A stretch of DNA of 5,488 nt from Candidatus Nanopusillus sp. Lineage in GTDB: Archaea; Nanobdellota; Nanobdellia; Nanobdellales; Nanobdellaceae. The stretch is taken from NCBI GenBank assembly GCA_046536775.1, contig JAWDMD010000030.1, forward strand, positions 1 through 5,488. The letters run 5' to 3'. The notes beneath the pieces were generated by a model. The model did no database searches. It saw only the letters and a list, made by a program, of their open reading frames with translations, and was not told the origin of the DNA. Positions 639 through 5,484 of this stretch are shown in pieces. Both the position numbers and the translations under genes were made by a program. How positions within the stretch are numbered: position 1 is the first letter of the stretch; each line of letters starts with the position of its first letter.

Positions 639-805
639 AAAAAATACAGGTGATCCACGAGCAACTTTTGAATGAGGGTAATCAAAAACAAGTATAAAAT
701 TTGACATATAAAATGTTGACATGTAATTCCACTTTAGTTATATTTTTTTTTGAAATTTTAATGTATAGTAAAAGTTTCTACTCCTATTTTTTTAGTTCTC
801 TTTAT

Positions 806-842: not shown

Positions 843-1100
843 GGGACTTCCAACCCTAAGACTCCCTCTCCATACTTGTCGGAAGGAATTTTGCCGGGCA
901 GGTTATATTCGCAATCCAAAACTGAAATTAAGCATTTTTACAGTATCTATTATTGCATTGTAAAATTCTTTTCTATCCTCAAGCGATTAGGCTGGAGAAA
1001 AACAGCCAGCAGTTCCCGAAGTTCACCCTCCTCCCGAATGGCATTTCCCTCAGGGTGCTCAGGAACAGGTTCAGCCACGGAAACCTAGATTAGAGGAATA
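843..1100 (-). ncRNA. GC-rich module D: candidate structured non-coding RNA segment (family unknown). Two GC-rich blocks (843-905, 985-1100) flank an AT-rich core.
   Basis: It is C-rich on +, so G-rich on -. The only ORF (876-1088) gives a low-complexity S/R/P-rich translation. Short motifs are shared with modules A, B and C: cagccacgg at 1072-1080, tagagga at 1091-1097, gccgggcagg at 893-902. The segment ggcaggtta at 897-905 is the exact reverse complement of taacctgcc at 1388-1396. A TATA-like tttatatt (- strand, 1104-1111) lies just upstream. This is the weakest of the four modules. Confidence 0.3.
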
Positions 1101-1118: not shown

Positions 1119-1398
1119 CAGGGCTGTGCTGTTTTCTGTTCGTTTGTGCTGGGGTGAATGCCTGGATCCATGATTTTACAAATCTAGGGGACCGAGCCAC
1201 GGTAGTTCCATGTTCTTGTACCCCTGTGGTCCGGTTGGACAGGACCACCGTAACCTCCTTGGCCCCGTACCACAGTGGCCCATTAGCCCGGGGAGTACAG
1301 GGGAACTCAGCCCGATTCTGAGCTTCGGAAATCCAGGGAATCAGTGTCCAACTGCCCAATCCTATCCGGGGTCTGGCAGAGCTGTGGTAACCTGCCTT
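1119..1398 (-). ncRNA. GC-rich module A: candidate structured non-coding RNA (family unknown)
   Basis: Hand counts of four 60-nt rows give 52-65% GC, against 13-23% in the adjacent gene. Overlapping ORFs on both strands (1090-1359 -, 1210-1419 +) give implausible P/G/R/S-rich peptides. There is a perfect 7-bp long-range pairing of 1161-1167 (cctggat) with 1331-1337 (atccagg), enclosing about 163 nt. A perfect 7-bp hairpin pairs 1226-1232 with 1242-1248. An 8-bp helix with one bulged A pairs 1263-1270 with 1295-1303. A 5-bp hairpin pairs 1306-1310 with 1318-1322. The strand call rests on - strand T-tracts and the G-rich - strand. Confidence 0.45.
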
Positions 1399-1451
1399 AA
1401 GAATAAAAAACAGAAATAGAATTCGCCCCTAAAAAAATCTGTAAAGGCAGG
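1391..1451. repeat. Perfect 8-bp inverted repeat (cctgcctt / aaggcagg) closing the AT-rich spacer between modules A and B
   Basis: The segment 1391-1398 is the exact reverse complement of 1444-1451. The enclosed 45 nt (1399-1443) are AT-rich and contain both - strand oligo-T tracts: A6 at 1405-1410 and A7 at 1431-1437 on +. Confidence 0.6.
1431..1437 (-). terminator. Oligo-T (T7 on the - strand) at the 3' end of module B; first strong T-tract downstream of the 657-aa gene
   Basis: An A7 run on + at 1431-1437 reads on the - strand as ...ctcctgcctttacagatttttttagggg. Between the gene stop (1809) and this site, the - strand has no T-run longer than 4. Confidence 0.4.
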
Positions 1452-1790
1452 AGATCTATTAGGGGTCTCAGGAAAACCATTGAAAACTCAGAGAGCCACC
1501 TAGCCAGGGCTTTCAGTCCCTTGCTACTCCGTCCTCAGGTCTCCCAGCTAGCAGTCCCAGACTTTCCAGCCCTGCCCCCAGCCGGGCTCAACCAGATTTT
1601 TCAGTACCCATGCCCAAACCCATGTTTTTCAGCCCGGCCAGTTAGGCGACCCCATAAGACAGTCGGTGTGTCCAGCGGTACTCCCAGTCTACAGGTCCTG
1701 TTGCCCTGATCTTCTGCGAAGTCCACAGAATTATAAAGCTAAGCTGGGGGCAGAAGGCGTTGCAGAATGTGTATCAGTATCGGTCTGTTT
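1444..1790 (-). ncRNA. GC-rich module B: candidate structured RNA, possibly the structured 3' UTR of the 657-aa gene (family unknown)
   Basis: Hand-counted rows give 48-60% GC, and the module starts about 20 nt after the gene stop. A perfect 11-bp long-range pairing joins 1572-1582 (ctgcccccagc) and 1743-1753 (gctgggggcag), enclosing about 160 nt. A 5-bp hairpin pairs 1712-1716 with 1726-1730. The + strand has two internal T5 runs (1597-1601, 1625-1629) that would hinder + strand transcription in an archaeon. The + strand is C-rich. Collinear sequence blocks are shared with module C. Confidence 0.5.
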
Positions 1791-1808: not shown

Positions 1809-3782
1809 TTAAATAAAATGCAGAATCCCCAAAAGCTGCAGAATTCCCAATAATATTAATGCCAATGTTAATACTATTAACAATCCAGTAATTTCTTTAT
1901 TTTCTTCAGCTATTTCATAGTTTGAAAACAATTGAAGTCTATCCAAAAGCACCTTATGATAATAGTTTAATTTAAATGTATCTTTAATATTTTCGAATGT
2001 TTCTCTAAAAAATTTGGCATCGACAATATCTATATCATAATAAAATTCAAAGTCAGAAATAGCCTTTTGTGTAATTTTTTTAAGTTCTTTAGGACGAGGT
2101 TTTTTCTTTGATAAATGTTCTTCTATTTCGTTATTATATAAAATAAAGTAAGTGGCACTAGTTGTTGCCATATCTCCTAACAAAATTGACCAAGCTATAC
2201 CCCATTTTAACCCACACTCCTTAAAATTGATTATATTTTGATAAAAATCCTTCATATTACATAAATCCAAAAGAGTTACCCCACAATAATAATTTTCAAA
2301 AACAATTTCTTCAGGTACTACAGATCCATTTTCTTTAATTTCTTTTATAATGGTTTTAAAAGTTGTATCTTTCTTTTTATAATGTCTTTTTCTCACCCCT
2401 AAAAATTCTGATATATCTTCAATAAAATAGTCAGGAATTTTTTTCAAATCATAATTTTCAAGTTCCGGTCCTTTATCCAATACTATTTGTGAATTTTGGA
2501 AAATAATAAATGTTTGCTGTTTTTTGATATTTTCAATAAATCTATCAGGGTTCAGTGACTTTTTATATAATTTTATTATTTTATAAAAACTTTCTTTAAT
2601 TTTTCTTTTGTTTCTTAATATAATATCTAATATAAATTCAAAAATTAGATGTTTTTCATTCTCATCATATTCTTTATTATATTTTTTTATAATAATTTCG
2701 GATAATTTATTGTAGATTACGTAATCTACTAGTTTTTTTAAATAATTTATTGTTTTAATTTTTTTATATATATTTTCTCTAATTGGATAAACGATTTCAT
2801 TCCATATATTTAGCAATAAAAAGTCTTCAAAAGTAACAAATTCTTTTATTTCCTTTTTCCCTTCGCTCTCTACCTGTAATTTTCTTATATATTTGTTTCC
2901 GTAAATATTTTCTTTATCGCCTTTAATTTCATTCCCGTTTGAATTATTTTCATTTTTCCATTCAACATAAAAATCTTCAATATTTCTTAAAAAATAATCA
3001 TAGTCAAAATTCTTATCATTTTTTATTAAACGCTCTATAACAAATGTAACCGTTGCCACCCTCGAAATTGTATTATTATCATCATCATAATCAACATGTA
3101 AATAACCTTTGATGTTAGCATCAAATGTCTGCTCTTTGATAATGGGCGTTTGATTTACATAATTTTTATTAGTAATGTAAGCCATTTCATTTTTATATTC
3201 AAAGGAATAAGTTACCGGCTTCGAATCTTCAATTTCATAAAAATTTAAGTTTTCATTAAAAAACCTGATATGTATAAATCCCTCCCTACCTTTAGGGGTT
3301 AACACTTCATTTTTTCTTTCAAATAAATATAATAGGTTAATATCAACTTCTTCTTTTTCCTCAATTTTTTTCTTATCAATAATATATTCCTGAATATAAT
3401 CGTCAACAGTTTCAGGAGATAATAACAAAAAATTTTTAGGTATTAACTCCAATAAGTGTTGTTTATTAATCTTACTTATTTCCTTTCCTTTGCTTATATA
3501 TTTTTTAAATTCTTCAAAATTTATATCACTAATTTCTCCATTATTTGTTAAATCAACGCCAATGGTTATAATTCTTGCCCCATCTTTAATTTTTCTTTCA
3601 TATTTTTTTGGGTTTAATACTGATGCCTTCTTTTTATATTCCTCTTCTATAATCTGTTGCTGTTCTGGGGTTAATTGGTCTTTATTTTTTTCATAAATTT
3701 CCTTAATTGAATAATATTCGTATGGTGTAGTAATATTTTTGATCTTTTCCAGAAGATCTTCAAAGTTAGTTAATGTTAACAT
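1809..3782 (-). CDS. 657-aa hypothetical protein with a C-terminal transmembrane anchor (orphan, no recognisable catalytic domain)
   Basis: This is an uninterrupted 657-codon ORF in DNA so AT-rich that stop codons should be frequent by chance. The protein is rich in K, E, N and I. The last ~27 residues (ITGLLIVLTLALILLGILQLLGILHFI) form a tail-anchor-like TM helix. A second hydrophobic stretch is GLKWGIAWSILLGDMATTSATYFILY. The ATG at 3780-3782 sits about 23-26 nt downstream of a TATA-like box, suggesting a leaderless mRNA. Confidence 0.85.
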   Translation of the reverse strand: MLTLTNFEDLLEKIKNITTPYEYYSIKEIYEKNKDQLTPEQQQIIEEEYKKKASVLNPKKYERKIKDGARIITIGVDLTNNGEISDINFEEFKKYISKGKEISKINKQHLLELIPKNFLLLSPETVDDYIQEYIIDKKKIEEKEEVDINLLYLFERKNEVLTPKGREGFIHIRFFNENLNFYEIEDSKPVTYSFEYKNEMAYITNKNYVNQTPIIKEQTFDANIKGYLHVDYDDDNNTISRVATVTFVIERLIKNDKNFDYDYFLRNIEDFYVEWKNENNSNGNEIKGDKENIYGNKYIRKLQVESEGKKEIKEFVTFEDFLLLNIWNEIVYPIRENIYKKIKTINYLKKLVDYVIYNKLSEIIIKKYNKEYDENEKHLIFEFILDIILRNKRKIKESFYKIIKLYKKSLNPDRFIENIKKQQTFIIFQNSQIVLDKGPELENYDLKKIPDYFIEDISEFLGVRKRHYKKKDTTFKTIIKEIKENGSVVPEEIVFENYYCGVTLLDLCNMKDFYQNIINFKECGLKWGIAWSILLGDMATTSATYFILYNNEIEEHLSKKKPRPKELKKITQKAISDFEFYYDIDIVDAKFFRETFENIKDTFKLNYYHKVLLDRLQLFSNYEIAEENKEITGLLIVLTLALILLGILQLLGILHFI

Positions 3783-3804
3783 AAATAATATATTATATCA
3801 GTAA

Positions 3805-3812
3805 AATATAAA
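3805..3812 (-). promoter_or_regulatory. Candidate archaeal TATA box (tttatatt) with a purine-rich BRE-like agaaaaa upstream, for the 657-aa gene
   Basis: The - strand reads ttagaaaaatttatattttactgatataatatattatttATG. The box centre lies about 26 nt upstream of the ATG, which would give a leaderless transcript. The background is AT-rich, so a chance match is possible. Confidence 0.4.
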
Positions 3813-3883
3813 TTTTTCTAAAATAATTCATTGTTAGTTTAAATGCCATAATATATACAATGTTGCTATATGAATCAGAATTT

Positions 3884-4066
3884 TAGAGGGACCAGCATGG
3901 TCTGATAAGGTGATAATCAGTTTAAGGGACCCGCCGTACCAGAGCCACTGCCCCAACCCCCTTATCGGTGGTCAAGCCCTGCCGTACCCAGCCCCACCCG
4001 GATCCAGCCGGGTCAAATTCAGTCAATTTCAGTGAGTCTGGGGTCATGGGGGTGGCGAATGCAGGG
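3884..4066 (-). ncRNA. GC-rich module C: candidate structured RNA upstream of the 657-aa gene; a shorter relative of module B (and partly A)
   Basis: Hand-counted rows give 55-63% GC and there is no ORF. The + strand is strongly C-rich (3931-3960 has 17 C against 5 G). A perfect 6-bp hairpin pairs 3996-4001 (acccgg) with 4008-4013 (ccgggt). A 12-position pairing joins 3939-3950 and 4030-4041, giving 10 bp with a central 2x2 mismatch. A 6-bp pairing joins 3977-3982 (ccctgc) and 4061-4066 (gcaggg). Blocks shared with B are agccctgcc, ccagccggg, tcaa, tttcagt and gtaccca(t)gccc. The strand is uncertain, because TATA-like boxes exist on both sides. Confidence 0.5.
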
Positions 4067-4320
4067 ATAAAAATATGCAATTTGATTAATGTGCTTGAAT
4101 TCTATAATGAGGAGAAGAAGGAGAAGAAAAAAAAGCTTCATAATTAATCATCTTGGTTTTTATTAGAAAAGCAATTAATTTTTATTTCTCATGCTTATAA
4201 AAAGCATTAAAGGCATTTTTTAAAACAAGGAAGGAGTAAAAACATGTTTTCATTAACCGATTTGGATAATGTATTCTAATCGTTTTTCCCCCTTTTTGAA
4301 AAACTGATAAAAACATAGAA

Positions 4321-4343
4321 TTGACAAAATAGCATTTTGTCAA
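4321..4343. promoter_or_regulatory. Perfect 23-bp palindrome (ttgacaaaat-agc-attttgtcaa), candidate dimeric DNA-binding-protein operator
   Basis: The arm 4321-4330 is the exact reverse complement of 4334-4343, with a 3-nt centre. It lies in the ORF-free region between module C and the integrase gene. Confidence 0.5.
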
Positions 4344-4616: not shown

Positions 4617-5318
4617 ATGATGAACACAATGAGGTCACTGAGGCACTTAATAAACGAGGGAGTAGATCTAAACAACAGAGAATCATTTAAGAACTGGATT
4701 CTGAAAATGAAAAGAAAAGGGGTAATGGACAAGACTCTGAACATATACATAAAGGCATATAACAGTTATCTTGAATGGAAGGGCGAGGAAAAAATAAAAC
4801 CTTATAAGGAGATGAGGGCATTTAAGACGGCCAGGGCTACAGAAGAGGATTACAAAAAACTGATGGATGCCTGCTATGGATATACTGAAATAAGAAATAA
4901 ACTTATGATAGACCTTTTATTCAAAACTGGGATCAGGTACAGGGAATTAATAAATATCAGGCTAGAAGACATAAAGGAAGATACTTTAATAGTAAGGGGC
5001 AAAGGGCAGAAAATTAGAGTAGTACATCTCCCAAGATCTGTAAGAGATCTACTCAAAGAGTATTTAAAAATAAGAAAAGCAAAACCTGGGAACAATTTCC
5101 TTTTTGTAAATTATTATGGAGACCAGTTGACATATGCGGGAGGTCATAAAATACTGAATGAAATTGCAAAAAGGGCAGGGGTACACTTTTCGCCACACTT
5201 GGCGAGGCGGTTTTAAACAAGAAAATTATATCAGGAGGGCTATGATATTGAAAAAATCCGCCTGTTGCTTGGTCATGAAAAGCTAGATACCACAAAAACA
5301 TACCTCAAAGTGGATTAA
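4617..5318 (+). pseudogene. Tyrosine recombinase / phage-type integrase (XerC/D-like) interrupted by one in-frame TAA at 5214-5216
   Basis: The conserved recombinase motifs appear in order: LLFKTGIRYRE (Arg I), RGKGQKIRVVHLP (Lys beta-hairpin), SPHLARRF (His-x-x-Arg). After the TAA, in the same frame, comes TRKLYQEGYDIEKIRLLLGHEKLDTTKTYLKVD*, which carries His II and the catalytic Tyr. The stop sits where the consensus H-x-L-R-H-x-F-A-T has the Ala. It therefore removes the catalytic Tyr from the 199-aa product. Confidence 0.85.
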
Positions 5319-5356
5319 GAGGATGCAATTAACGAGCTTAGAAAGAAGGACTTCGA

Positions 5357-5411: not shown

Positions 5412-5484
5412 CGCCCCGGACGGGATTTGAACCCGTGTCACGAGCTCGACAGGCTCGTATGATAGGCCACTACACTACCGGGGC
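5412..5484 (-). tRNA. tRNA-Asp (anticodon GUC), archaeal type, CCA not encoded
   Basis: The - strand reads GCCCCGGTAGTGTAGTGGCCTATCATACGAGCCTGTCGAGCTCGTGACACGGGTTCAAATCCCGTCCGGGGCG (73 nt). The acceptor stem is 7 bp (GCCCCGG/CCGGGGC). The anticodon stem CGAGC/GCTCG carries the loop CTGTCGA, giving anticodon GTC. The T arm is ACGGG-TTCAAAT-CCCGT and the discriminator is G. The next bases are TAAG, so no CCA is encoded. The GCCC start, GTGTAGTGGCC D-arm and TTCAAATCC T-loop are typical of archaeal tRNA-Asp. Confidence 0.92.

What the first reader, a model, noticed from the sequence alone, without database searches (positions are those of the whole stretch)
3884..4066. A second, shorter GC-rich module upstream of the orphan gene is a relative of module B, so the gene is bracketed by related RNA-like elements in the same orientation
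Blocks shared in the same order on the + strand:
- agccctgcc (B 1568-1576, C 3975-3983)
- ccagccggg (B 1578-1586, C 4004-4012), followed by (c)tcaa
- tttcagt (B 1599-1605, C 4027-4033)
- gtacccatgccc (B 1604-1615) versus gtacccagcccc (C 3984-3995)

Relative to B, C carries a ~22-nt insertion. That insertion supplies the 5' half of the local hairpin 3996-4013. In both modules the ccctgcc block is complementary to a segment at the far end of the module (B 1572-1582 with 1743-1753, C 3977-3982 with 4061-4066). Conserved blocks separated by variable hairpin insertions and closed by an equivalent helix are what homologous structured RNAs look like. They do not look like simple DNA repeats.
Basis: seen in the sequence. 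Interest (0 to 1): 0.8.

Follow-up and report, generated by a model that had tools for sequence, protein, structure and literature searches.

The report
GC-rich non-coding flank, not B's relative
The GC-rich stretch upstream of the orphan gene is a real non-coding flank that travels with this mobile-element gene in hot-spring nanoarchaea, but it is neither a demonstrable relative of module B nor a demonstrably folded RNA: the shared blocks are copies of one short strand-specific motif (CTGA/CTGG).

Summary
The four blocks are at the stated coordinates, but only three are collinear. B-C similarity is marginal against dinucleotide shuffles (Smith-Waterman P=0.05-0.11). It vanishes against a null that keeps the oligomer vocabulary of these GC islands (P=0.12-0.44). 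Neither a profile HMM nor a covariance model links C to B.

No conserved fold is supported. Folding-energy z-scores are about 0 on both strands. RNAalifold covariation terms are unfavourable.

The module itself is real. C-type sequence lies upstream of the 657-aa gene in 11 related metagenome loci, and B lies downstream in about 25. The organism is a Nanopusillus-like nanoarchaeon. The region is a degraded integrated element (tRNA-Asp, integrase pseudogene, MCM fragments) that CRISPR targets.

C has two parts: a promoter-proximal segment (3878-3955) kept in most loci, and a variable GC-rich tail.

B and C share a 4-6-fold, strand-specific excess of CTGR on the gene-sense strand, and every shared block contains one. 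My best reading is motif-dense non-coding flanks of one gene unit, probably read as RNA. Iteron-like DNA sites or neutral GC-rich DNA remain live rivals.

The parts
3878..3955 (.). Promoter-proximal conserved segment of module C ('5' segment'), including the imperfect palindrome CTGATAAGGTGATAATCAG
   Evidence: This segment is kept upstream of the gene in most related loci. That includes loci whose distal GC-rich sequence is different (L003, L007, L012, L024, L053) or absent (L014, L023, L025). Substitutions in its small hairpin are not compensated.
3956..4066 (.).
   Evidence: It is 73-100% identical in the 10 distinct C-type sequences other than the window (L001, L002, L004, L006, L008/9, L010, L011, L017, L021). 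Other lineages carry other GC-rich sequence here. One-base indels among close homologs exclude coding. There is no covariation.
4012..4033 (.). Small 10-nt tandem repeat (GTCAAATTCA x2.2) inside C. On the minus strand it gives two ACTGAA motifs.
   Evidence: Tandem Repeats Finder and the motif list.
3783..3877 (.). AT-rich intergenic spacer with TATA-like boxes on both strands. It is the presumed promoter region of the gene and possibly of a divergent transcript.
   Evidence: The sequence was read directly. The part next to the ATG is conserved in nearly all the Nanopusillus-type loci. The promoter roles are inferred, not shown.
1809..3782 (-). 657-aa orphan gene with a C-terminal hydrophobic helix
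   Evidence: ORF list. Homologs were found. There is no Pfam, PADLOC or PHROG family. The AlphaFold model has pLDDT 84 and no significant PDB fold match, the best being CorA-like at E about 0.1.
1444..1790 (-). Module B, the downstream GC-rich flank, with 16 CTGR motifs on the gene-sense strand
   Evidence: It is 73-99% identical, immediately after the stop codon, in about 25 loci. CTGR counts are 16 observed against 3 expected, with the reverse complement at 2. Motif columns are more conserved than the rest, P=0.004.
1431..1457 (-). Hairpin AGATCT-N11-AGATYT followed by a T run at the distal end of B on the minus strand (terminator-like)
   Evidence: It is conserved in nearly all B homologs. 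The C-to-T change in the 3' arm, seen in the window lineage and in L027, gives G-U on the minus strand and A-C on the plus strand. The bacterial-type terminator scan did not flag it because the loop exceeds 8 nt and there are fewer than 3 G-C pairs.
1612..1647 (.). Segment of B equivalent to a CRISPR spacer/protospacer
   Evidence: In L003 this 36-nt segment is duplicated (33 of 36 identical). Each copy abuts a CRISPR repeat, and together they flank a 2.86-kb unit carrying the gene.
1120..1400 (.). Module A, a further GC-rich non-coding island beyond B
   Evidence: It is 92-99% identical in 8 loci and weakly similar to island D of other lineages. Its MFE z-scores are -0.47 and +0.94.
845..1090 (.). 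Module Z, a further GC-richer non-coding island
   Evidence: It is conserved in 6 loci. Its MFE z-scores are +0.21 and +0.71.
4617..5330 (+). Tyrosine recombinase (Phage_integrase) gene with two in-frame TAA stops, a probable pseudogene
   Evidence: Pfam E=7.6e-24 for residues 75-198. The stops were read in the sequence. The gene is also split in L048.
5412..5484 (-). tRNA-Asp(GTC), the likely integration target of the element
   Evidence: ARAGORN and Rfam at 64 bits.

Best explanation
Module C is the upstream non-coding flank of a gene unit carried by a mobile element. The element is integrated next to tRNA-Asp in a thermophilic, AT-rich, Nanopusillus-like nanoarchaeon.

C has two parts. A promoter-proximal segment (3878-3955) is kept wherever the upstream region survives. 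A GC-rich, indel-prone tail (3956-4066) has been reshaped or exchanged between lineages.

B is the corresponding downstream flank. It starts right after the stop codon and ends in a hairpin plus T run on the gene strand.

B and C are not copies of one ancestral module and do not share a fold.

The mechanism I commit to is inferred, not shown. The flanks are read in the gene-sense direction, B as a long 3' extension of the mRNA, and they act as largely unfolded CUGR-motif platforms for a sequence-specific binding factor. They are not folded ribozyme- or riboswitch-like RNAs. The evidence for this is weaker for C than for B.
For: Real and syntenic:
- B and C homologs flank the gene in related hot-spring contigs.
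- One contig is an NCBI Nanopusillus acidilobi MAG.

Non-coding:
- Indels of 1, 4 and 7 nt occur among homologs.
- The six-frame translations match no Pfam family.

Motif array:
- On the gene-sense strand, CTGR occurs 16-22 times in B against about 3 expected, and 6-12 times in C-type modules against about 2 expected.
- The reverse complement occurs only 1-6 times.
- The pattern holds in all lineages tested.
- CTGR columns in B are more conserved than other columns (0.91 vs 0.82, P=0.004).

Gene-strand reading of B:
- G exceeds C on that strand.
- The hairpin plus T run at the distal end is conserved, with a G-U-compatible change.
- The first hairpin of B shows U-A to U-G and one C-G to U-A change that fit the minus strand only.
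- The C hairpin 3996-4013 is U-G on the minus strand where it is C-A on the plus strand.
- In L003 the CRISPR spacer is oriented so that, if the leader is on the AT-rich side, the crRNA would be antisense to the gene-sense B transcript.

Not a folded RNA family:
- Rfam finds only tRNAs.
- MFE z-scores are about 0.
- There is no covariation.

Mobile-element context:
- tRNA-Asp, an integrase pseudogene and MCM fragments are present.
- A CRISPR spacer matches B.
Against: - No transcript data exist, so the strand and even transcription itself are inferred.
- TATA-like boxes and A/T runs can be read for either strand. A TATA-like box about 25 nt upstream of 3884 would fit a + strand transcript of C instead.
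- The candidate upstream promoter for a minus-strand C leader (near 4068-4078) is degraded in L008/L009.
- B and C are not more conserved than the gene's third codon positions. Against L011, for example, the gene's third positions are 0.91 identical, B 0.84 and C 0.79. Variable columns are 50% in B, 42% in C and 34% in the gene. Purifying selection on the flanks as a whole is therefore not shown.
- In C the motif columns are not more conserved than the rest (P=0.29).
- No CUGR-binding factor is known or identified here.
Confidence: 0.4

Rival explanations
1. Double-stranded DNA cis-elements of the mobile element. B, C and D would be iteron-like arrays of short oriented sites around AT-rich spacers, serving as a replication origin, a partition (centromere-like) site or recombinase accessory sites. 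Their resemblance would come from binding the same element-encoded protein.
For: - The sequences are conserved without covariation, and MFE z-scores are about 0.
- The motifs are directly oriented, with frequent 9-14-nt spacing.
- In many loci B is followed by a conserved AT-rich spacer of about 160 nt and then island D. Part of D is a tandem array of 8-9-nt GGNCCACTG units with dyad symmetry.
- The 2.86-kb unit in L003 (segment-gene-B-spacer-D) looks like a circular permutation. A free circle of that kind would need an origin.
- MCM fragments lie in the same element.
Against: - A 4-nt motif with irregular spacing is weak for iterons.
- No Rep, ParR or ParB-like protein was recognised. The 657-aa protein has a C-terminal membrane helix and no DNA-binding fold match.
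- The G-U-compatible substitutions and the terminator-like end of B are not explained by this reading.
- GC-richness is not needed for DNA sites in an AT-rich genome.
Confidence: 0.25
2. Neutral or nearly neutral GC-rich DNA. The flanks would be low-complexity sequence that grew by slippage of a short GC-rich unit, or came from a GC-richer donor. They would be carried along with a recently spread gene, and the similarity among loci would reflect recent common ancestry.
For: - The flanks evolve as fast as, or faster than, the gene's third codon positions and have more variable columns.
- There are many unit-sized indels: a GGGAGGT duplication, CCTGAA-type unit gains, and expansion of the 8-9-nt array in D.
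- The modules are replaced in a mosaic fashion between lineages.
- There is no structure signal.
Against: - GC of 52-60% persists in a genome of about 25-30% GC in all lineages.
- CTGR columns in B are significantly more conserved than their neighbours.
- The hairpin plus T run and the promoter-proximal segment are retained across otherwise rearranged loci.
- No donor sequence was found in phage records, and no coding remnant was found.
Confidence: 0.2
3. One reading: B and C are homologous structured non-coding RNAs on the + strand. Each would be closed by an equivalent long-range helix, with variable hairpin insertions.
For: - The blocks and complementary segments exist in this sequence.
- Shared 7-mers exceed dinucleotide shuffles (P=0.007).
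- A TATA-like box lies about 25 nt upstream of 3884 on the + strand (inferred).
- One predicted + strand helix in C shows C-G to U-G changes.
- GC-rich islands in AT-rich hyperthermophile genomes are often RNA genes (own knowledge: Klein, Misulovin and Eddy 2002).
Against: - The profile, the covariance model and the vocabulary-aware nulls do not link B and C.
- One block is out of order.
- The closing helices show no compensatory changes beyond shuffled controls and break in divergent loci.
- On the + strand the hairpin 3996-4013 is mismatched in 5 of 9 sequences.
- In the RNAalifold tables, my own tally finds more broken than maintained changes at paired positions of C on both strands: 31 broken vs 21 kept on +, and 44 vs 13 on -.
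- MFE z-scores are about 0.
- There is no Rfam family.
Confidence: 0.05

Closest known systems
GC-rich non-coding RNA islands of AT-rich hyperthermophiles (Klein, Misulovin and Eddy 2002 screen; Hgc RNAs of Methanocaldococcus and Pyrococcus; cited from my own knowledge)
   Same: These are discrete 180-350-nt islands of 52-58% GC in a thermophile genome of about 25-30% GC. They are non-coding and retained in relatives.
   Different: They match no Rfam family, Hgc families included. They have no excess folding stability and no covariation. They sit on a mobile element rather than in the core genome.
Protein-sponge small RNAs such as CsrB/RsmZ (many copies of a short motif on one RNA; cited from my own knowledge)
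   Same: B is about 350 nt and carries 16-22 one-stranded copies of a short motif spaced 9-20 nt apart. The motif columns are preferentially conserved in B.
   Different: The motif is CUGR, not GGA. Archaea lack CsrA. The motifs are not shown to sit in hairpin loops. No binding partner and no transcript is known. This is an analogy of architecture only.
Iteron or centromere-like repeat arrays of plasmids (for example R1 parC, iteron origins; cited from my own knowledge)
   Same: There are directly oriented short repeats beside AT-rich spacers on a mobile element. Island D is a true tandem array.
   Different: The repeat unit in B and C is only 4-6 nt, with irregular spacing. No cognate Rep or ParR-type protein was recognised.
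Guide RNAs encoded next to transposon nucleases (the omega RNAs of TnpB and IscB; cited from my own knowledge)
   Same: A conserved non-coding module abuts the end of a mobile-element gene.
   Different: The 657-aa protein has no RuvC, HNH or OrfB signature and no fold match. It carries a C-terminal membrane helix. No structured scaffold is detectable, and no Rfam omega-RNA or HEARO hit was found.

Membership tests
Any curated RNA family (Rfam 15) | Match to a family covariance model at or near its gathering score | tested here: not met
   In the window at E<=1 only tRNA-Asp is found. In 20 loci at gathering threshold only tRNAs are found. In four loci at E<=1 only a tRNA and a chance miRNA hit are found.
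   SW gives P=0.05-0.11 against dinucleotide shuffles and P=0.12-0.44 against the Markov-3 island null. nhmmer gives E=0.99 or no hit. The covariance model of C has no hit in B.
   The C helices have 0 pairs with double changes against a shuffled mean of 0.8. The B helix has 1 against 0.7. RNAalifold covariation terms are +1.28, +3.56 and +1.66.
   The z-scores are +0.23 and +0.37 for C and -0.59 and -0.74 for B.
   B lies downstream in about 25 loci. C-type sequence lies upstream in 11 loci (10 distinct sequences), and its first 45-60 nt in 7 more.
Archaeal box C/D sRNA | C box RUGAUGA and D box CUGA 30-75 nt apart, with internal D'/C' boxes | tested here: not met
   Only one C-box-like heptamer was found (GTGATAA at 3910, + strand), with no D box downstream. 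There is no exact C box in any island.
tRNA, tRNA-like or split-tRNA element | Cloverleaf detected by ARAGORN or the Rfam tRNA model | tested here: not met
   The only tRNA in the window is at 5412-5484.
CRISPR array | Regularly spaced identical repeats of 25-40 nt | tested here: not met
   There are no such repeats in the window. The CRISPR repeat of L003 is absent from the window lineage.
Protein-coding sequence or remnant of one | An open frame preserved among homologs, or a match to a protein family | tested here: not met
   Frame-breaking indels occur among close homologs. ORFs are open in several frames with no conserved frame. Ten translated fragments match no Pfam family.
Iteron or centromere-type DNA repeat array | Several copies of a defined repeat of 10 nt or more, in helical phase, bound by an element-encoded protein | tested here: inconclusive
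   Oriented CTGR motifs have many 9-14-nt spacings, and island D of other loci is a true 8-9-nt tandem array. The repeat unit in B and C is very short, and no binding protein was identified.

The most novel reading that the evidence does not exclude
B, C and the related island D may be a new class of thermophile non-coding element. They would be weakly folded, GC-rich transcripts or UTRs built from dense one-stranded CUGR arrays, and they travel with a membrane-protein gene on a small nanoarchaeal mobile element (about 2.9 kb in its minimal form). They would work as binding platforms or sponges for a host or element RNA-binding factor. A further possibility is that they act as targets or decoys in the CRISPR conflict seen in L003 and L011.
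Probability: 0.15. Interest if true: 0.65.

Novelty: new member of a known kind. Interest (0 to 1): 0.35.

Why it matters
If the flanks are functional motif arrays, they would be among the first non-coding elements described for mobile elements of Nanoarchaeota (Nanobdellota), a group whose mobile elements and RNA biology are largely unknown.

They would also show that GC-rich islands in AT-rich thermophile genomes need not be folded RNAs. For the scan itself the lesson is practical. Short exact blocks shared between GC-rich islands of one locus can come from a common oligomer vocabulary. They should be tested against nulls that keep that vocabulary before homology is claimed.

The related loci also give a concrete, testable case of a small element sitting inside a CRISPR array at a spacer that matches it.

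Tried and rejected
- Rfam scans of the window and of the loci gave only tRNAs.
- Covariance model of C: it finds only C-type sequence upstream of the gene, with no B and no extra copies.
- nhmmer profiles run B against C and C against B gave no significant link.
- Inverted-repeat (transposon-end) relation of B and C: reverse-complement SW is below the shuffle mean.
- Protein-coding reading of the islands: rejected because of frame-breaking indels, shifting frames and no Pfam match.
- RNA-guided nuclease idea (a TnpB/IscB-like gene with a flanking guide RNA):
  - Rejected because there is no Pfam, PADLOC or PHROG hit.
  - The pLDDT-84 model has no PDB fold match, only weak CorA-like hits.
- Integron attC idea: I read the sequence for GTTRRRY/RYYYAAC core sites at the 5'-segment breakpoint and found none. 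No tool test was run.
- Box C/D sRNA idea: rejected.
- G-quadruplex idea: the window has one motif, on the minus strand at 3977-3999, and it is not conserved in L011 or L008.
- Search for the gene in GTDB representative genomes and in IMG/VR found none.
- An 18-mer of B in GTDB genomes gave 16 hits in unrelated bacteria, about the number expected by chance.
- A B 20-mer pattern in IMG/VR gave two hits. One is inside a viral coding gene with a 26-nt near-identity, which I judge probably chance.
- Phage records held no DNA or protein match.
- A search for a second partial tRNA-Asp copy (the other att site) found none within the available contigs.
- Polarising substitutions to estimate equilibrium GC: the same crude method gave 0.42 for the 24%-GC gene, so I discarded it.

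Full report
**Setting**

The window is AT-rich, about 25% GC in the coding parts. It has sharp GC-rich islands at 845-1090 (Z), 1120-1400 (A), 1444-1790 (B) and 3884-4066 (C). Other features:
- A 657-aa ORF lies on the minus strand at 1809-3782.
- A tyrosine-recombinase gene at 4617-5330 carries two in-frame TAA stops.
- tRNA-Asp lies at 5412-5484 on the minus strand.

The 657-aa protein has no Pfam, PADLOC or PHROG family. It does have 24 close relatives in hot-spring metagenomes. One of these is annotated in an NCBI MAG of Candidatus Nanopusillus acidilobi, phylum Nanobdellota/Nanoarchaeota. A longer version of the same locus (L048) adds fragments of an MCM helicase gene and small ORFs. The window is therefore part of a degraded integrated element next to a tRNA gene in a thermophilic nanoarchaeon.

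**Checking the observation**

All four blocks, the local hairpin and both long-range complementarities are at the stated coordinates. The fourth block (gtaccca[t]gccc) is out of order between B and C, so only three blocks are collinear.

Tests of the similarity:

| Test | Result |
|---|---|
| Local alignment B vs C, dinucleotide shuffles | score 24 vs 18.4 +/- 2.5; 20 of 500 shuffles reach it |
| Repeat SW, two scoring schemes, dinucleotide null | P=0.05 and 0.11 |
| Shared 7-, 8-, 9-mers, dinucleotide null | P=0.007, 0.08, 0.12 |
| SW, third-order Markov null trained on this family's GC islands | P=0.12 and 0.44 |
| Shared 7-, 8-, 9-mers, Markov null | P=0.19, 0.32, 0.30 |
| nhmmer profile of 13 B homologs against C | no hit at E<=100 |
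| nhmmer profile of 9 C homologs against B | touches 1568-1597 at E=0.99 |
| Covariance model of C, filters off, whole window | no hit in B at E<=10 |
| Covariance model of C across 34 loci | only C-type sequence upstream of the gene |

The blocks are also not conserved features of the B family.

**Why the blocks match**

On the gene-sense (minus) strand, B contains 16 CTGR tetranucleotides against about 3 expected, and only 2 of the reverse complement. C contains 7 against about 1.7 expected, and 2 of the reverse complement.

The same bias holds in every lineage examined. B homologs have 20-22, and C-type modules have 6-12. The most enriched 5-mers are GGCTG, GCTGG, ACTGA and CTGAA.

- ccagccggg is cccggCTGG.
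- agccctgcc is ggcagggCT, which continues into CTGG in B.
- tttcagt is aCTGAaa.

B and C thus share a short, one-stranded motif vocabulary and not an alignable ancestry. In B the motif columns are more conserved than the other columns (0.91 vs 0.82, permutation P=0.004). In C they are not (P=0.29).

**Is there a conserved fold?**

No test supports one.
- Minimum free energies are no lower than dinucleotide shuffles. The z-scores are C +0.23 and +0.37, B -0.59 and -0.74, A -0.47 and +0.94, Z +0.21 and +0.71.
- RNAalifold on 9 C sequences (73-100% identity) and 13 B sequences gives unfavourable covariation terms and only 3-5 pairs with double changes.
- In the per-pair tables for C, my tally finds more broken than maintained changes at paired positions on both strands (31 vs 21 on +, 44 vs 13 on -).
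The C closing helix and hairpin have no double changes, against a shuffled mean of 0.8.
- The closing helix breaks without compensation in L011 and L004. On the + strand the hairpin's fourth pair is C-A in 5 of 9 sequences.
- The B helix 1572-1582/1743-1753 has one double change, no better than shuffles, and its 3' arm is partly deleted in several lineages.

**Which strand?**

The evidence is thin, but it leans to the gene strand for B.
- G exceeds C on that strand.
- A hairpin AGATCT-N11-AGATYT plus a T run lies at the distal end and is conserved in nearly all homologs. A C-to-T change in it is G-U on the minus strand.
- The first hairpin after the stop codon shows U-A to U-G and one C-G to U-A change in the L021/L017/L031 group.

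For C the evidence is mixed. The hairpin 3996-4013 tolerates its change only on the minus strand. Another predicted helix tolerates its changes only on the plus strand. A TATA-like box about 25 nt upstream of 3884 would suit a + strand transcript. These promoter and terminator readings are my inference from the sequence. The bacterial-type scan is not informative for archaea.

**Anatomy of C from comparison**

The AT-rich stretch next to the start codon is kept in nearly all the Nanopusillus-type loci. The next 60-75 nt (window 3878-3955) is kept in most loci. Beyond that, lineages differ:
- The C-type tail occurs in the window, L001, L002, L004, L006, L010, L017, L021, L011 and L008/9.
- A different GC-rich sequence running up to tRNA genes occurs in L024 and in the NCBI MAG contig L053, and partly in L007 and L012.
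- Island D occurs in L003.
- AT-rich coding sequence occurs in L014, L023 and L025.

C is therefore a composite of a stable promoter-proximal segment and an exchangeable GC-rich tail.

Downstream, B is usually followed in one of two ways. In the window lineage A and Z follow. In other lineages a conserved AT-rich spacer of about 160 nt follows, and then island D. In L005, L031 and L053, part of D is a tandem array of 8-9-nt GGNCCACTG units.

**Is it under selection?**

The flanks are not more conserved than the gene. Identity to the window at third codon positions is 0.83-0.92. For the same loci B is 0.84-0.90 identical and C 0.74-0.97. Variable columns are 34% in the gene, 50% in B and 42% in C.

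Retention across loci is thus compatible with recent common ancestry. The only positive signs of constraint are the preferential conservation of CTGR in B, the retained terminal hairpin, and the persistence of 52-60% GC in an AT-rich genome.

**The gene**

With a 50-sequence alignment that includes distant relatives, AlphaFold gives a confident model (pLDDT 84, pTM 0.83). It has a beta-rich N-terminal half, long helices and a C-terminal hydrophobic helix. Foldseek against the PDB finds nothing significant. The best hits are CorA-type channels at E about 0.1.

The protein is not a recognisable nuclease, replicase or recombinase. That removes the TnpB/IscB-with-guide-RNA analogy.

**Mobile-element evidence from related loci**

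In L003 the gene, its upstream segment, B, the AT spacer and D form a 2.86-kb unit lying between two CRISPR repeats of one array. A 36-nt piece of B (equivalent to window 1612-1647) is duplicated at both junctions, 33 of 36 identical. This is what recombination between a spacer and its protospacer on a circular element would give. An assembly chimera cannot be excluded.

In L011/L026, island D is cut off and joined to a single copy of the same repeat. Either way, the flanks belong to DNA that a CRISPR system has sampled.

**Conclusion**

The claim that C is a relative of B, and that both are homologous folded RNAs, is not supported. What is there is a real, family-specific, GC-rich non-coding flank. 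Like B, it is packed on the gene-sense strand with CTGR motifs.

- My best reading (confidence 0.4) is that the flanks belong to the gene's transcription unit and act as weakly structured motif platforms at the RNA level.
- An iteron-like DNA role has confidence 0.25.
- Near-neutral GC-rich DNA has confidence 0.2.

Strand-specific transcript mapping would decide between most of these.

Noticed in passing
L003 425-3868 (equivalent to window 1612-1647 in B): A 2.86-kb unit (upstream segment, 657-aa gene, B, AT spacer, island D) sits inside a CRISPR array with repeat CTGCCATACTACTTAGTACTTCGGAATC. A 36-nt piece of B is duplicated at both junctions, 33 of 36 identical, and each copy abuts a repeat. 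This looks like a circular element that recombined with a spacer matching it. An assembly chimera is not excluded.
   Followed up: partly
L011 3300-3450 and L026 1300-1450: Island D is cut off after about 110 nt and joined to a single copy of the same CRISPR repeat, followed by AT-rich sequence. This is a second, independent junction between this element family and a CRISPR repeat.
   Followed up: partly
window 4617-5330: The tyrosine recombinase next to tRNA-Asp has two in-frame TAA stops in otherwise well-conserved motifs (after ...ARRF and after ...YLKVD). In L048 it is split into two ORFs, and MCM helicase fragments lie nearby. The integrated element is decaying.
   Followed up: partly
L005 2577-2724; L031 about 990-1200; L053 about 4900-5010: Part of island D is a tandem array of 8-9-nt units (GGNCCACTG) with internal dyad symmetry (CCACTGTGG; GTACCCAC...GTGGGTAC). 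ORFs are open in all frames but no frame is conserved. Module A of the window has a short version of the motif, gggccactgtggtac on the minus strand.
   Followed up: partly
window 4321-4343; L028 and L029 just downstream of the gene homolog: A perfect 10-bp-arm palindrome TTGACAAAAT-AGC-ATTTTGTCAA lies between C and the integrase. A near-identical palindrome (GACAAAAT-TAAC-ATTTTGTC) lies beside distant homologs of the gene that have no GC-rich flanks. TTGACA-containing 15-nt repeats also occur at window 693-726. This may be an operator of a regulator that travels with the gene.
   Followed up: no
L053 about 5320-6300 (NCBI Nanopusillus acidilobi MAG contig JAWDMP010000057.1): About eight AT-rich tandem units of roughly 125 nt lie in a 2-kb stretch with no called genes, downstream of island D. 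Each has a TATA-like box (ttattatatatttaaaag) and a GGGAGTAC...-type motif.
   Followed up: no
window 1809-3782 and its homologs: The three codon positions of the 657-aa gene diverge almost equally (for example 0.85, 0.90 and 0.83 identity against L008), and there are many in-frame indels. This suggests relaxed or diversifying selection on a membrane-anchored protein. The most widely conserved part is the C-terminal helical region, residues about 520-625.
   Followed up: partly
L051 2047-2072 (IMG/VR contig UViG_3300008050_000009, 38 kb): A 26-nt stretch inside a viral coding gene is 96% identical to the most conserved piece of B (ggcagacctgaggacagagtggcaa). It is probably chance, given the pattern search that found it, but the extra flanking matches are slightly more than expected.
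   Followed up: partly
L011 3748-4540: An 800-nt island of 53% GC has no ORF over 83 aa, no Rfam match and no CTGR excess. It is followed by an AbrB/SpoVT-like small ORF. This is another uncharacterised GC-rich non-coding stretch in these contigs.
   Followed up: no
L024 2511-2584; L053 about 2000-2150: In one lineage the upstream GC-rich flank starts immediately after one or two tRNA genes oriented like the 657-aa gene, with no integrase between them. This fits integration at a tRNA 3' end, with the flank at the very edge of the element.
   Followed up: no
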